Origin: a virus | DNA: 64,000 nt | Direction: 5' to 3' (one strand) | Virus genome (UHGV): UHGV-0120889 | In this document: in pieces, positions 32,640-49,787 of the stretch | Numbering within the stretch: position 1 is the stretch's first letter | Layout: the number at the start of each line of letters is the position of its first letter | The notes under the pieces: generated by a model | Told to the model about the DNA's origin: nothing | The model's database searches: none | The model's input: the letters and a program-made list of their open reading frames with translations, nothing else | Translations under genes and position numbers: made by a program

Positions 32640-33458
32640 TTGAGCAAGAAAGAGTCCAACGACAAATACTACACAAACCCTGAGTATGCAGAATATCTTG
32701 TTGGTAAAGTAAAAGATAAGTATGGGAATTGTGCATACGTTGAGCCTTCTGCTGGAAGGGGTTCTTTTTCAAAACTATTTTCAGAGATACTGTCGTACGA
32801 TTTAGTACCAGATCCTGAATTTGAAGGACCAACACCGTGCATTCAGGCAAACTTCTTGGAGGTGCATCCCAAGGCAGATGTCTTCATAGGTAACCCACCA
32901 TTTGGCAAGAATTCATCCTTAGCTTGCAAATTCTTTAACCATTGTGCATCATTGCTAGAGCTTGGAGGGGCTATAGCCTTCATCTTGCCACGGACATTTG
33001 AAAAAATATTTTTTGCAAACAAACTGGACATGTCGATGCACCTTGTCTACAGCGAAAGGTGCCCTAAGAATTCGTTTTTACTTAATGGCAAACCTTATGA
33101 CGTGCCATGTGTTTTCCAAATTTGGGAGAAAAAGGCGTGCAATAGGGATCCTGTAGAGATTGGAGAGAATAAGTTATTTTCTTTTAGCACACCAGATGAC
33201 TACGACTTCTGTGTAAGACGTGTTGGGTATAATGCTGGAAAAGTATTGGGGGATGATGACCCAAAATCTGAAGAATCAACATATTTCATAAAATCTTTAG
33301 TTAACGGTGTTGACAGAGTGTTTGCTGAATGCTATTCTTCTTTTCAAGAAGAAGCAGGTAAGACTGCTGGAATGAAGAGTATAGGTAAGAAAGAACTACA
33401 ATACATTTTGGAGACCAGGTATGATCAAAAGCATAGACTTGACCAAAGAACTTACTGA
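32640..33458 (+). CDS. DNA methyltransferase (NPPF motif; N6-adenine or N4-cytosine), TTG start
   Basis: Motif I VEPSAGRGSF and motif IV FIGNPPFG; GGAGG RBS then in-frame TTG after the terminator. Confidence 0.55.
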   Translation: MSKKESNDKYYTNPEYAEYLVGKVKDKYGNCAYVEPSAGRGSFSKLFSEILSYDLVPDPEFEGPTPCIQANFLEVHPKADVFIGNPPFGKNSSLACKFFNHCASLLELGGAIAFILPRTFEKIFFANKLDMSMHLVYSERCPKNSFLLNGKPYDVPCVFQIWEKKACNRDPVEIGENKLFSFSTPDDYDFCVRRVGYNAGKVLGDDDPKSEESTYFIKSLVNGVDRVFAECYSSFQEEAGKTAGMKSIGKKELQYILETRYDQKHRLDQRTY

Positions 33459-46399: not shown

Positions 46400-47449
46400 A
46401 TGAATTTAACACCTCGCAGCACCATGGTACACGGCATGAAAGAAAAACAGAACGGTTTCGAACCTATGAGTAATAAAATGTTTGGTATGCCGGGTGGTAT
46501 TATGGAAACATACAGCTACCCAACACCTGTTGTTGACCACGTTCTTTATATCGACGATTTGGAAGACCTGCAGGATCATATGTCTCGTCTGCAGACGATC
46601 CGTATGGCTCAGCCGGAAGAAAGCATTCGGGTGATCATCAATAGCCCTGGGGGTTGCGTGAACATTGCAATGGCTTATCTACAGGCATTCCGCGAGTCTC
46701 AGGCAAGCGTTGTTGCACATGCTGAAGGGATGTGCTGCTCTGCGGGAACAATCTTATGGCTGGGTTGTAAAGAACGCACTGTGGCTCCGGACACAGAATT
46801 TATGTTCCACTACTATCAAGGTGGCACCTATGGTAATGGTGTGAACATGAATACTCAGGTCAGCTACTGGAAAAAACGTTTTGAACGCCTGATCGAAAAA
46901 TACTACGGTGGGGTGCTGACAGAAGATGAGATCGCATCCATCACAGCTGGTGGTGAAGTGTGGTTGGACGGAGAGGAGCTGGCAGCTCGAACTGGAGCCA
47001 TCGTTCTGGATGAAGGCAACATACAGCGCATCCAGAACGGACAAAAACCTAAAAAGCTTTTGGCAAAAGGTGATGAAGAAGGTGTGCTAGGTGAAGCAGG
47101 TCTTCCGGAGATTCACCAGTGCACCTCTTTAGATGAGCTAGTTCATGCTGTTGAATCTGCAAAAGCGGGTGGTTCGAAAGGTGATGTTCACACTGTGTTC
47201 CTGAACCTGCAGATGGAAAGTGGTGAGACCGTTAAGATTGCCTTAGGCGAGATTACCTCAGAAGATCTGCAGCGATTCTCTGTCGTTGAACTTCAAGACA
47301 TTCTGTCCCAATTGAAGACAACCCTGAACGGCGGTGAAGAGGTTAAGGTAAAAGATAAGACTCGCAAGCGTCTGGTGGACAATATTATTAAAACAGCAAA
47401 AGAGCTCAATGAAAAAATCCTGGGTGCAGGAATTGTCGAAGAAGCTTAA
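46400..47449 (+). CDS. ClpP-like serine protease (S14/S49 fold) with N- and C-terminal extensions
   Basis: INSPGGCV, GMCCSAGTIL (Ser) and FMFHYYQGG (His) align with ClpP catalytic core motifs. Confidence 0.65.
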   Translation: MNLTPRSTMVHGMKEKQNGFEPMSNKMFGMPGGIMETYSYPTPVVDHVLYIDDLEDLQDHMSRLQTIRMAQPEESIRVIINSPGGCVNIAMAYLQAFRESQASVVAHAEGMCCSAGTILWLGCKERTVAPDTEFMFHYYQGGTYGNGVNMNTQVSYWKKRFERLIEKYYGGVLTEDEIASITAGGEVWLDGEELAARTGAIVLDEGNIQRIQNGQKPKKLLAKGDEEGVLGEAGLPEIHQCTSLDELVHAVESAKAGGSKGDVHTVFLNLQMESGETVKIALGEITSEDLQRFSVVELQDILSQLKTTLNGGEEVKVKDKTRKRLVDNIIKTAKELNEKILGAGIVEEA

Positions 47450-47462
47450 ACATTAATTCTAA

Positions 47463-47487
47463 AGCCCTCTTCGGAGGGCTTTTATGA
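47463..47487 (+). terminator. rho-independent terminator
   Basis: AGCCCTC-TTCG-GAGGGCT hairpin followed by TTTATGAT. Confidence 0.55.
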
Positions 47488-47500
47488 TCTGGAGATTTGC

Positions 47501-48034
47501 ATGACTTGTGCTCGAAAACCTGATGAACAACGTAACGCCTACGATGAGTATGTGACACCGGAGTGGTGTGCAGAAGGGCTGTACGACCTTATTCCGTTCC
47601 CAGAAGACTGGACCTACTTAGAGCCTTGCAGGAATAGTGCCTCAGGTGTGTTCTACTCCCGTATGCCGTTAGGATCTGCATGGGGAGAAATCCAAGAAGG
47701 TGTTGACTATCTGAATACAGAATACAACCATGTTGACTGTATTATCACCAACCCACCATACAGTTTGGCTCGTGAGTTTGTAGACAAGGCGTTGAAAGAT
47801 GCTGACGTAGTTATTATGCTTTTGCGTCTTAATTTTCTGGAAAGCAAAGCCAGATTTGAATGGTGGCTTGATAATGCACCTACCACTGTGATCACAATAT
47901 CTAAGCGTCCATCTTTTCAATCAAATGGCAGAACTGACGGGCAAGCATATGCATATTTTGTGTGGGATAAGAAAAACCGTTTAGGCTTGCCGCCATTTAT
48001 GTGGTTGGCACCCCCAGAGGTAGACCTGAAATGA
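47501..48034 (+). CDS. small DNA N6-adenine methyltransferase-like protein (NPPY)
   Basis: Motif IV IITNPPY plus upstream YVTPEW; 177 aa. Confidence 0.55.
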   Translation: MTCARKPDEQRNAYDEYVTPEWCAEGLYDLIPFPEDWTYLEPCRNSASGVFYSRMPLGSAWGEIQEGVDYLNTEYNHVDCIITNPPYSLAREFVDKALKDADVVIMLLRLNFLESKARFEWWLDNAPTTVITISKRPSFQSNGRTDGQAYAYFVWDKKNRLGLPPFMWLAPPEVDLK

Positions 48035-48315
48035 AAATGAGTGCTAAGGACAAATTACACCAGCTAGCGCTAAAACGCCCTGTAACGCTCCCTGACGAGC
48101 TTAACTCCATTTATGATGCGATTGTAGGGGAGATACAAAATAAAGCGTTAGCAGGCTTTCTGGGGTGCGGATTTTCGATAAATCTACCCTCGCATCTCTC
48201 AGATTACTTCCCGCACATTGTTGGAGATTTAAGGGCAGGAGGTCTGCAGGTAGATGTTGTTGGCATCTCCCCAGAGAAAAATAATACGGTTGCCTACTTG
48301 ACAGTAACCTGGTAG
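48031..48315 (+). CDS. hypothetical protein
   Basis: ATG 48031 overlapping methyltransferase stop (ATGA). Confidence 0.4.
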   Translation: MKMSAKDKLHQLALKRPVTLPDELNSIYDAIVGEIQNKALAGFLGCGFSINLPSHLSDYFPHIVGDLRAGGLQVDVVGISPEKNNTVAYLTVTW

Positions 48316-49257: not shown

Positions 49258-49787
49258 CAGGTATGCTTCTGATTAACTGGGAAGACCTCTATGGGGACAA
49301 AGACCCTGTTGCGTTTGTTGATCGTAGGTGGAGATACACTGAAGAACAACTGGCGGCAAAAAATTTAACTGCAAAACGCAGAAAGATCATCCAGTGCAAG
49401 TACAAATACGCACAGTTTGCTGCAAAAGTGTCTCCACAAATCGAGAGCTTTGTGCTTAAATTGTATGACGAGTACCTCAAATTCAAATTGGATTTTGTGC
49501 AGGTGTACCGTGCACAGGTACGACCAGATACCAACATATGTAGATGGAAGGTTGTTTGTGACGGTAAAGATTTGCCGCTCAGCTTGACAATTGAGTGGCG
49601 TTATGGGTATCATGAGTGTGGTCTGTATGATATTTGGGATGTCATTGTAGATCCTGCTAAGCACCTGAACACAGAGGAGCTGGAATATATCAATAAGATT
49701 ATTCTTGATATGTTTTTCAGCTACACCCGTGAAAACTCTGGGAAAGAACGGGATAATTTTCTTGACACCCTCAGCGACCATTTGTAG
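49254..49787 (+). CDS. hypothetical protein (177 aa)
   Basis: ORF track. Confidence 0.45.
   Translation: MTGMLLINWEDLYGDKDPVAFVDRRWRYTEEQLAAKNLTAKRRKIIQCKYKYAQFAAKVSPQIESFVLKLYDEYLKFKLDFVQVYRAQVRPDTNICRWKVVCDGKDLPLSLTIEWRYGYHECGLYDIWDVIVDPAKHLNTEELEYINKIILDMFFSYTRENSGKERDNFLDTLSDHL

What the first reader, a model, noticed from the sequence alone, without database searches (positions are those of the whole stretch)
47501..48034. Second, compact NPPY-type DNA methyltransferase
A 177-aa protein with IITNPPY is a second orphan methyltransferase in the same genome segment. Two methyltransferases imply two modified motifs and broad anti-restriction coverage.
Basis: partly seen in the sequence, partly recalled or inferred. 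Interest (0 to 1): 0.4.

Follow-up and report, generated by a model that had tools for sequence, protein, structure and literature searches.

The report
Known phage GATC adenine methyltransferase
The 177-residue gene is real and is the small DNA adenine methyltransferase of rV5-like E. coli phages; a 99%-identical copy has already been shown to methylate GATC sites and to set off bacterial retron defences, so this is a correct but ordinary, already-described gene.

Summary
Window 47501-48034 (+) encodes a 177-aa protein with IITNPPY.

The window is an rV5-like Vequintavirus. The protein is 100% identical to rV5 gp118, annotated "DNA methyltransferase". It is 175/177 identical to bas51_0176 of BASEL phage Bas51 (WalterGehring).

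A 2025 PLoS Biology paper (PMC12548924) studied the Bas51 "N6 adenine methyltransferase". Its retron-escape mutations D69G, D79G and T83P match only this protein among Bas51's four annotated methyltransferases.
- Wild-type Bas51 has 1405 methylated adenines at GATC. I count 703 GATC sites, which is 1406 adenines.
- The T83P mutant has 35.
- GTAC methylation does not change (509 versus 511).

So the enzyme is a GATC-specific (Dam-like) m6A DNA methyltransferase. A second motif, GTAC, is made by another enzyme.

By fold it is a bare M.TaqI-like gamma-class catalytic domain with no separate recognition domain. It is a remote relative of the compact HP1-type phage Dam family (PF05869) but scores below Pfam's threshold.

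"Broad anti-restriction coverage" is not supported. The BASEL study calls Vequintavirinae exceptionally susceptible to restriction-modification systems, and the enzyme is a documented liability as a retron trigger.

Verdict: already known, low interest.

The parts
47501..48034 (+). CDS of the 177-aa GATC-specific N6-adenine DNA methyltransferase. It is the orthologue of rV5 gp118 and Bas51 bas51_0176.
47491..47494 (+). GGAG ribosome-binding site, 6 nt upstream of the ATG
   Evidence: Read directly from the sequence.
47543..47560 (+). Residues D15-P20 (DEYVTP). This is the conserved N-terminal D-x-Y-x-T-P motif, equivalent to motif X or the 'ETP' of M.TaqI.
   Evidence: T19 is invariant. D15, Y17 and P20 are at least 90% conserved. 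The motif aligns with E22-T-P of M.TaqI and with D-x-W-x-TP of HP1 Dam.
47618..47647 (+). Residues L40-G49 (LEPCRNSASG). This is motif I, the SAM-binding loop after strand beta-1.
   Evidence: E41 and P42 are at least 90% conserved. The stretch aligns with LEPACAHG of M.TaqI.
47687..47707 (+). Residues E63-D69 (EIQEGVD). E63 is motif II, the acidic residue for the SAM ribose. D69 is motif III, for the SAM adenine. D69G is a published loss-of-trigger mutation.
   Evidence: E63 aligns with M.TaqI E71 and D69 with M.TaqI D89. D69 is at least 90% conserved. D69G in Bas51 abolishes retron triggering (PMC12548924).
47735..47761 (+). Residues D79-Y87 (DCIITNPPY). This is strand beta-4 plus catalytic motif IV. 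D79G and T83P are published loss-of-function mutations.
   Evidence: T83, N84, P85 and P86 are invariant. The stretch aligns with M.TaqI D100...N105-PPY108. T83P lowers GATC m6A from 1405 to 35 adenines.
47801..47968 (+). Residues 101-156, the C-terminal half of the Rossmann core (strands 101-109, 129-133, 150-156). It carries family-invariant L107, R109, R118, R136, D146, Y150 and W155 and the 134-149 loop. These are candidate DNA-recognition elements, since there is no separate TRD. This assignment is an inference.
32640..33458 (+). Context only: the 'first' methyltransferase of the window (272 aa, GNPPF). It is the orthologue of rV5 gp096 and Bas51 bas51_0200. It is a candidate for the GTAC m6A activity, but this is not shown.
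   Evidence: 99% identical to bas51_0200. phrog_5172 matches at E=2.6e-129, and the N-terminal half hits phrog_799 at E=3.3e-13. It lacks D69/D79/T83.

Best explanation
**What it is.** The gene encodes a SAM-dependent DNA N6-adenine methyltransferase that methylates the adenine of GATC, the same specificity as host Dam. It acts on essentially every GATC site of the replicating phage genome.

**How it works.**
- It is a single Rossmann-fold domain with gamma-class motif order: D-x-Y-x-TP, then motif I (LEPC..G), motif II (E63), motif III (D69), motif IV (T83-NPPY).
- By inference, SAM is held by motif I, E63 and D69.
- By inference, the target adenine is flipped into the NPPY pocket.
- By inference, GATC is read by loops of the catalytic domain itself, because there is no separate target-recognition domain.

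**Where it sits.** It is an orphan enzyme expressed from the nucleotide-metabolism and early-middle gene block: ribonucleotide reductase genes, PhoH, ClpP-like protease, then the methyltransferase.

**What is shown, in a 99%-identical orthologue.**
- Methylation of GATC on phage DNA depends on this gene.
- Host Dam alone leaves the phage DNA almost unmethylated.
- The gene is dispensable for plaque formation.
- Its activity triggers retrons Asa1 and Squ1.

**What is inferred about benefit.** The enzyme probably keeps fast-replicating phage DNA in the 'fully Dam-methylated' state. That would avoid GATC-directed attack by MutH, or by DpnII/MboI-type enzymes in some hosts, and sequestration by SeqA. 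It is not a broad anti-restriction device.
For: 1. **Identity with the studied enzyme.**
 - The window protein is 175/177 identical to Bas51 bas51_0176, with the same ClpP-like neighbour.
 - The published escape mutations D69G, D79G and T83P fit residues D69, D79 and T83 of this protein.
 - They fit none of Bas51's other three annotated methyltransferases: bas51_0200 has Q/A/I at those positions, and bas51_0070 and bas51_0074 also differ.
2. **Published methylome** (PMC12548924, Fig 4f and S4 Table).
 - Wild type: GATC 1405, GTAC 509, other 576.
 - T83P: GATC 35, GTAC 511, other 349.
 - I count 703 GATC sites (1406 adenines) and 258 GTAC sites (516 adenines) in the Bas51 genome. Methylation is therefore about 100% at GATC in wild type and about 2.5% in the mutant.
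3. **Activity of the gene alone.** Cloned on its own, it triggers Retron-Squ1 in Serratia quinivorans and is toxic in E. coli. The downstream overlapping ORF is therefore not needed.
4. **Fold and motifs.**
 - The AF2 model has pLDDT 88 and pTM 0.85.
 - The family profile hits M.TaqI at E=6e-6 and aligns TP, LEP..G, E63/E71, D69/D89 and NPPY.
5. **Conservation.** T19, T83, N84, P85 and P86 are invariant, and D69, E41 and P42 are at least 90% conserved across 48 homologues.
6. **Relationship to HP1 Dam.** hhalign against HP1 Dam, the 173-aa archetype of PF05869, gives 92.9% probability and E=3.6e-7 with the same motif order.
Against: - The experiments were done on Bas51, not on this exact phage. 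Two residues differ, G162D and V174A, both in the C-terminal tail.
- All methylome work was done in a dam+ host, so catalysis by the phage protein itself in a dam- background has not been shown in what I read.
- The 'other' m6A class also drops in the mutant, from 576 to 349. Strict GATC specificity is therefore not proven.
- The biological benefit is not established. Mutant phage stocks titre only about 2-3-fold lower (S4 Table).
- GATC is neither avoided nor enriched beyond its Markov expectation in the window (343 observed, 332 expected).
- No Pfam model reaches its threshold.
Confidence: 0.9

Rival explanations
1. Together with the other methyltransferase, the enzyme gives the phage broad protection against host restriction-modification systems.
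For: - Orphan phage methyltransferases can block restriction enzymes whose sites contain the methylated motif.
- Both GATC and GTAC are about 100% methylated in Bas51 virion DNA.
- GATC m6A would block MboI/DpnII-type enzymes, and GTAC m6A would block some GTAC/GGTACC-type enzymes. This is established enzymology, recalled from my own knowledge.
Against: - BASEL phenotyping found Vequintavirinae 'exceptionally susceptible' to the tested type I, II and III RM systems, lacking 'any effective protection' (PMC8594841).
- Two 4-bp motifs cover only a small share of restriction specificities.
- Enterobacterial hosts are themselves Dam+, so restriction enzymes that m6A at GATC would block are not expected in them.
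- Methylated GATC is a target for DpnI-like methyl-directed enzymes and a retron trigger.
Confidence: 0.1
2. The protein is an RNA (tRNA or rRNA) m6A methyltransferase rather than a DNA enzyme.
For: - One GenBank record, phage BP9, labels the orthologue 'tRNA1(Val) A37 N6-methylase TrmN6'.
- The phage carries its own tRNAs.
Against: - A point mutation in the orthologue removes m6A at GATC in DNA.
- The best structural and profile hit is the DNA enzyme M.TaqI.
- There is remote homology to HP1 Dam.
- The RNA methyltransferases share only the common Rossmann core.
Confidence: 0.03
3. The protein does not catalyse methylation itself. It stimulates or recruits host Dam onto phage DNA.
For: All published methylome data come from dam+ hosts. 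The motif is exactly that of host Dam.
Against: - The protein has a complete SAM-binding and NPPY catalytic motif set, conserved across hundreds of homologues.
- The loss-of-function mutations hit predicted SAM-binding and catalytic positions: D69 aligns with TaqI D89, and T83 is next to NPPY.
- Homologues occur in phages of Gram-positive hosts such as Listeria, Staphylococcus and Enterococcus, which as far as I know lack Dam.
Confidence: 0.03
4. The enzyme prefers GATC but has relaxed specificity or acts on single-stranded DNA. It would therefore differ functionally from host Dam. That extra activity, rather than duplex GATC methylation, would explain its toxicity and its retron triggering.
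For: - The retron hosts are expected to be Dam+ (E. coli MG1655 is; for S. quinivorans I assume so), yet they are triggered only when the phage enzyme is present.
- The enzyme is toxic in dam+ E. coli without any retron.
- 227 non-GATC, non-GTAC m6A calls disappear in the T83P mutant (576 to 349).
- There is no dedicated recognition domain.
Against: - The logo of methylated sites is a clean GATC.
- The 'other' class may be basecaller noise next to methylated GATC sites.
- Toxicity and triggering could simply reflect much higher expression or activity than host Dam.
Confidence: 0.3

Closest known systems
Bas51 (Escherichia phage WalterGehring) bas51_0176 / rV5 gp118, the 'N6 adenine methyltransferase' characterised in PMC12548924 (PLoS Biol 2025)
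   Same: - The sequence is 99% identical to bas51_0176 and 100% identical to rV5 gp118.
- The genomic position is the same, downstream of the ClpP-like protease.
- The residues hit by the published mutations are the same.
- It is the same gene in a sister phage.
   Different: It differs from Bas51 at two C-terminal residues, G162D and V174A. Nothing suggests a functional difference.
HP1-type compact phage Dam family (Pfam PF05869 'Dam', TIGR01712). HP1 Dam (orf13, 173 aa) is the member tested here. VT-2 Dam is named as another phage Dam in PMC7556043. T1 Dam's membership is from memory only.
   Same: - The size is about 170-180 aa with a single domain.
- The motif order is the same: D-x-[YW]-x-TP, then an acidic-P/C-A motif I, NPPYS, a hydrophobic LL strand and R-x-x-F.
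- The GATC specificity is the same.
- It is phage-borne and orphan.
- hhalign probability is 92.9%, E=3.6e-7.
   Different: - It falls below both curated thresholds: PF05869 19.2 bits against a cutoff of 28.1, and TIGR01712 16.1 bits against 97.
- Only 13 of 48 family members give even weak PF05869 hits.
- It is best treated as a sister family (phrog_799) and not as a member.
M.TaqI and other gamma-class N6-adenine DNA methyltransferases (type I HsdM, M.BseCI, PacII, CamA catalytic domains)
   Same: - They share the gamma-class motif order and the NPPY catalytic motif.
- SAM-binding residues E63 and D69 align with TaqI E71 and D89.
   Different: - M.TaqI is 421 aa with a large C-terminal DNA-recognition domain, and type I enzymes use a separate S subunit.
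- This protein has neither.
- The specificity is GATC rather than TCGA.
Host and T-even Dam (E. coli Dam, T4 Dam; alpha-class)
   Same: The product is the same: m6A at GATC. Both are orphan enzymes.
   Different: - No Pfam match to a family of that type appears among the hits.
- Those enzymes are about 260-280 aa.
- From my own knowledge, they carry a recognition domain inserted between the SAM-binding and catalytic halves and use DPPY.
- The shared specificity is convergent. PMC7556043 makes the same point for another phage GATC enzyme.

Membership tests
N6-adenine (amino) DNA methyltransferase, gamma-class | Catalytic motif IV (D/N/S)PP(Y/F/W) on the loop after strand beta-4 | tested here: met
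   T83-N84-P85-P86-Y87 are present. T83 to P86 are invariant in 48 homologues. The motif aligns with N105-PPY108 of M.TaqI.
N6-adenine (amino) DNA methyltransferase, gamma-class | SAM-binding motifs I, II and III lie N-terminal to motif IV with no inserted domain (gamma order) | tested here: met
   LEPC..G (residues 40-49), E63 and D69 precede NPPY (84-87) within 45 residues. They align with M.TaqI LEPACAHG, E71 and D89.
N6-adenine (amino) DNA methyltransferase, gamma-class | Class I Rossmann-like methyltransferase fold | tested here: met
   [not shown]
N6-adenine (amino) DNA methyltransferase, gamma-class | A separate C-terminal target-recognition domain or a specificity subunit | tested here: not met
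   The protein is 177 aa and a single domain. 144 residues align to the TaqI catalytic domain alone. The cloned gene is active alone (PMC12548924).
N6-adenine (amino) DNA methyltransferase, gamma-class | Demonstrated m6A formation in DNA | not testable with these tools
   Shown in the literature for the 99%-identical Bas51 orthologue: 1405 versus 35 m6A at GATC in wild type versus T83P. Not shown for this exact phage.
Pfam PF05869 'Dam' / TIGR01712 (HP1-type compact phage Dam) | Score above the curated threshold of the family model | tested here: not met
   PF05869 scores 19.2 bits against a cutoff of 28.1. TIGR01712 scores 16.1 bits against 97.05. HP1 Dam itself scores 250.8 bits.
Pfam PF05869 'Dam' / TIGR01712 (HP1-type compact phage Dam) | Detectable homology over the whole domain with the same motif order | tested here: met
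   hhalign of the A1 profile against HP1 Dam gives probability 92.9%, E=3.6e-7, over 122 columns. This is remote homology only.
Pfam PF05869 'Dam' / TIGR01712 (HP1-type compact phage Dam) | GATC specificity | not testable with these tools
   Met according to published nanopore data on the orthologue.
PHROG phrog_799 (phage 'DNA methyltransferase') | Significant full-length match to the family profile | tested here: met
   E=5.5e-67, 227.9 bits, residues 1-172.
Alpha-class Dam (E. coli Dam / T4 Dam type) | Sequence match to a family of that type, with a DPPY motif and a recognition domain inserted between motifs | tested here: not met
   No such family appears among the Pfam or NCBIfam hits at E up to 1. 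The motif is NPPY, and only about 35 residues separate motif I from motif IV.
Orphan (solitary) methyltransferase | No cognate restriction endonuclease gene adjacent | tested here: met
   The neighbours are a PhoH-like protein, a ClpP-like protease and small proteins with no Pfam hit and PHROG 'unknown function'. No nuclease is annotated within several kb in rV5 or Bas51.
Retron-triggering phage methyltransferases | Loss-of-function mutations let the phage escape a retron, and expression of the gene alone activates the retron | not testable with these tools
   Published for the Bas51 orthologue with retrons Asa1 and Squ1 (PMC12548924).

The most novel reading that the evidence does not exclude
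The enzyme may belong to a distinct lineage of minimal GATC methyltransferases that lack a recognition domain. This is phrog_799, a sister to the HP1-type Dam family. Its way of reading DNA is unknown: intrinsic loops, dimerisation, or action on single-stranded or hairpin DNA. It may also have activity beyond duplex GATC. That would explain three things: why it triggers retrons in hosts that are probably Dam+ while host Dam does not, why it is toxic in dam+ E. coli, and why about 230 non-GATC m6A calls vanish in the mutant.
Probability: 0.3. Interest if true: 0.4.

Novelty: already known. Interest (0 to 1): 0.12.

Why it matters
It matters little as a discovery. The gene has been annotated as a DNA methyltransferase in the rV5 record, and its specificity and a phenotype were published in 2025.

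It is useful for annotation. The product can be named a GATC-specific (Dam-like) m6A DNA methyltransferase and retron trigger, rather than 'hypothetical protein' or 'TrmN6' as in several GenBank records.

It also corrects an over-reading. Carrying orphan methyltransferases does not make these phages broadly restriction-proof.

The residual scientific interest is mechanistic:
- how a 177-residue single domain reads GATC;
- why it, unlike host Dam, activates retrons.

Tried and rejected
- **Sequence search of the PDB with the single protein** gave only noise (adenylate kinase and antibody chains, E>0.6). The family profile was needed.
- **Pfam and NCBIfam** gave no hit above threshold. I do not file the protein under PF05869, EcoRI_methylase or Eco57I.
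- **The rV5 genome paper** (PMC3606486) says nothing about methylation or restriction.
- **The EHEC Zorya/Druantia/ARMADA paper** (PMC13463889) has nothing on phage methyltransferases. The retron Eco2 paper (PMC12916289) only mentions methyltransferases in general.
- **The overlapping downstream 94-aa ORF as a trans-acting specificity subunit** was considered and rejected. The cloned methyltransferase gene alone triggers the retron, and the ORF belongs to a PHROG of unknown function.
- **GATC avoidance or enrichment as a signature** was considered. Observed over Markov-expected is 1.03, so it is uninformative.
- **Locus L005** never appeared in the Python sandbox. Motif counts for Bas51 were taken from the DNA search instead, so sites spanning chunk borders could be missed. 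At most three such borders exist.
- **A linear rV5-to-window coordinate map** failed by about 411 bp for the first methyltransferase. Its position was fixed by tblastn instead.
- **The large representative-protein search** was not run, because it would not change the verdict.

Full report
**1. The observation**

It runs from 47501 to 48034 on the + strand, starts with ATG and encodes 177 aa containing ...VDCIITNPPYSLAR.... A GGAG ribosome-binding site lies 6 nt upstream.

It is not a chance ORF.
- The identical sequence is on 112 public contigs, named 'DNA methyltransferase [Escherichia phage V5]'.
- tblastn finds 545 phage records with a match.
- PHROG phrog_799 ('DNA methyltransferase') matches at E=5.5e-67.

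**2. Where the window comes from**

Megablast places the window in the rV5-like E. coli myoviruses (Vequintavirus, about 137 kb). It is 98-99% identical to phages magaca, rV5_ev146, nomo, JeffSchatz and others.
- The protein is 100% identical to rV5 gp118, annotated 'DNA methyltransferase; similar to Vibrio cholerae phage K139 hypothetical protein'.
- The gene follows a PhoH-like gene and a ClpP-like protease gene, at the end of the nucleotide-metabolism block (ribonucleotide reductases, ThyX).
- Small genes of unknown function follow it.
- No nuclease lies nearby, so 'orphan' is correct.

The 'first' methyltransferase of the window is at 32640-33458 (+). It is 272 aa with GNPPF and is the orthologue of rV5 gp096.

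**3. Published experiments on the same gene**

A full-text search led to PMC12548924 (PLoS Biol 2025). That paper reports the following.
- The mutations D69G, D79G and T83P were rebuilt in a clean background and abolished defence.
- Nanopore 6mA calling on virion DNA gave a GATC logo, and T83P caused 'near complete depletion' at GATC.
- The S4 Table gives, for wild type, GATC 1405, GTAC 509 and other 576. For T83P it gives GATC 35, GTAC 511 and other 349.
- The cloned gene alone was toxic in E. coli. It triggered growth arrest through Retron-Squ1 in Serratia quinivorans.

**4. Is that enzyme the orthologue of this ORF?**

Bas51 is Escherichia phage WalterGehring, MZ501111 (BASEL supplement). 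I fetched the whole genome. It carries four annotated methyltransferases.

| Gene | Size | Type |
|---|---|---|
| bas51_0070 | 441 aa | beta-class, DPPF |
| bas51_0074 | 254 aa | Dcm-like |
| bas51_0176 | 177 aa | next to the ClpP-like gene |
| bas51_0200 | 272 aa | NPPF |

- Only bas51_0176 has D, D and T at positions 69, 79 and 83.
- bas51_0176 is 175/177 identical to the window protein, which has the same three residues.

So the published enzyme is this gene. My own count of the Bas51 genome gives 703 GATC sites (1406 adenines) and 258 GTAC sites (516 adenines).
- Wild-type virion DNA is therefore about 100% methylated at both motifs.
- T83P DNA is about 2.5% methylated at GATC and unchanged at GTAC.
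- Host Dam alone evidently does not keep up with phage DNA synthesis.

**5. What kind of enzyme it is**

No Pfam or NCBIfam model reaches its threshold. EcoRI_methylase scores 20 bits, PF05869 Dam 19.2 and Eco57I 13.2.

A search of the large protein database returned 309 relatives of 160-230 aa, almost all without a Pfam assignment. In a 48-sequence alignment:
- T19, T83, N84, P85, P86, L107, R109, R118, R136, D146, Y150 and W155 are invariant;
- D15, Y17, P20, E41, P42 and D69 are nearly invariant.

The profile hits M.TaqI in the PDB at E=6e-6. The alignment pairs:
- TP with E22-TP;
- LEPC..G with LEPACAHG (motif I);
- E63 with E71 (motif II);
- D69 with D89 (motif III);
- D79 with D100;
- NPPY with N105-Y108 (motif IV).

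The published loss-of-function mutations therefore fall on a predicted SAM-contacting residue (D69), on the start of strand beta-4 (D79) and next to the catalytic tetrapeptide (T83).

The structural evidence agrees.
- The AF2 model is confident: pLDDT 88.2 and pTM 0.85.
- Nothing is left over that could be a separate target-recognition domain.

hhalign of the family profile against HP1 Dam gives 92.9% probability and E=3.6e-7, with the same motif order. HP1 Dam (orf13, 173 aa) scores 250.8 bits on PF05869.

I therefore describe the protein as a bare gamma-class catalytic domain. It is a sister family to the compact HP1-type phage Dam enzymes and convergent in specificity with the alpha-class host Dam.

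**6. Mechanism**

Shown in the orthologue:
- GATC adenine methylation of phage DNA depends on this gene;
- the gene is not essential;
- it triggers two retrons.

Inferred from motifs and fold:
- SAM binds through motif I, E63 and D69;
- the flipped adenine sits in the NPPY pocket;
- sequence is read by loops of the catalytic domain, with candidates R109, R118, R136, D146, Y150 and the 134-149 loop.

Inferred for biology: the enzyme keeps rapidly replicating phage DNA fully Dam-methylated. That would avoid GATC-directed nicking or cleavage by MutH, or by MboI/DpnII-type enzymes in some hosts, and binding by SeqA. PMC7556043 notes that the role of phage Dam enzymes 'is still not well understood'.

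**7.

Right:
- it is a DNA methyltransferase, compact, orphan and the second in the segment;
- two m6A motifs exist.

Wrong or over-reached:
- 'Broad anti-restriction coverage' fails. The BASEL study reports Vequintavirinae as 'exceptionally susceptible' to RM systems and lacking 'any effective protection' (PMC8594841).
- The tested RM sites there (EcoRI, EcoRV, EcoKI, EcoP1I and others) do not contain GATC or GTAC. This illustrates how narrow the protection from two 4-bp marks is.
- A relative's genome has four annotated methyltransferases, not two. Only two are in this window.
- Which enzyme makes the GTAC mark is unresolved. The candidates are the 272-aa NPPF enzyme in the window and the 441-aa beta-class enzyme outside it.

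**8. Loose ends**

Four observations leave room for activity beyond duplex GATC. This is the only part that is not already known.
- E. coli MG1655 is Dam+, and I assume S. quinivorans is too. Yet only the phage enzyme triggers the retrons.
- The enzyme is toxic in dam+ E. coli.
- 227 'other' m6A calls disappear in T83P.
- The enzyme has no recognition domain.

I give this reading about 0.3.

**9. Verdict**

The finding is a correct reading of a real gene, but the gene is already annotated and its orthologue is experimentally characterised.
- Novelty: already known.
- Interest: low, 0.12.
- Confidence that it is a GATC-specific m6A DNA methyltransferase: 0.9.

Noticed in passing
window 32640-33458 (+): This is the companion methyltransferase: 272 aa, GNPPF, motif I YVEPSAGRGSF, phrog_5172. 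Its N-terminal 118 residues weakly match phrog_799, the family of the 177-aa enzyme (E=3.3e-13). It also has about 150 extra C-terminal residues, possibly a recognition domain. It is a candidate for the GTAC m6A seen in Bas51, but that is unassigned. Bas51 also has a 441-aa beta-class enzyme and a Dcm-like enzyme, neither of which is in this window.
   Followed up: partly
whole window: GTAC is the most under-represented 4-nt palindrome in the window: 105 observed against 195 expected from a second-order Markov model, ratio 0.54. Yet it is fully m6A-methylated in the relative Bas51. GATC is at expectation (343 against 332).
   Followed up: partly
window 49263-49787 (+): This 174-aa protein is 98% identical to Bas51 'putative glycosidase' bas51_0171. 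Its R87* mutation co-occurs in retron escapers and relieves Retron-Asa1 defence (PMC12548924). It has no Pfam hit, and phrog_13467 is of unknown function, so the 'glycosidase' label has no support from the searches run here. It lies only four genes downstream of the methyltransferase.
   Followed up: partly
window 47461-47482 (+), and 47485-47488: A 9-bp GC-rich hairpin with a UUCG tetraloop (AAAGCCCUC-UUCG-GAGGGCUUU) has a centroid energy of -14.7 kcal/mol and z=-2.5. It sits between the ClpP-like stop codon and the methyltransferase start and is followed by UAUGAUC. It could be a terminator or an RNA-stability element that is not annotated in rV5. A GATC site lies between it and the ribosome-binding site.
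   Followed up: partly
window 48031-48315 (+): The methyltransferase stop codon overlaps the ATG of a 94-aa ORF (ATGA). That ORF belongs to phrog_12158, of unknown function, and has no Pfam hit. This suggests translational coupling. The ORF is not needed for retron triggering by the cloned methyltransferase.
   Followed up: partly
window 46400-47449 (+): The ClpP-like protease is 349 aa, but the Clp protease domain covers only residues 59-168. About 180 C-terminal residues have no assignment.
   Followed up: no
GenBank MG0656xx records: Nineteen records named 'Campylobacter phage', with host Campylobacter jejuni, are about 98% identical to this E. coli rV5-like DNA. The host label looks doubtful, or the propagation host was contaminated.
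   Followed up: no
window between 33458 and 47501, compared with rV5 (L001): The distance between the two methyltransferase genes is about 411 bp shorter in the window than in rV5. This points to an indel, probably a small gene or homing-endonuclease difference, somewhere in the ribonucleotide-reductase region.
   Followed up: no
Bas51 L002-L005; literature: E. coli MG1655 is Dam+, and I assume Serratia quinivorans is too. Their retrons carry GATC, yet only the phage enzyme triggers them. The enzyme is also toxic in dam+ E. coli. Host Dam leaves phage DNA about 97% unmethylated at GATC in the T83P mutant.
   Followed up: no
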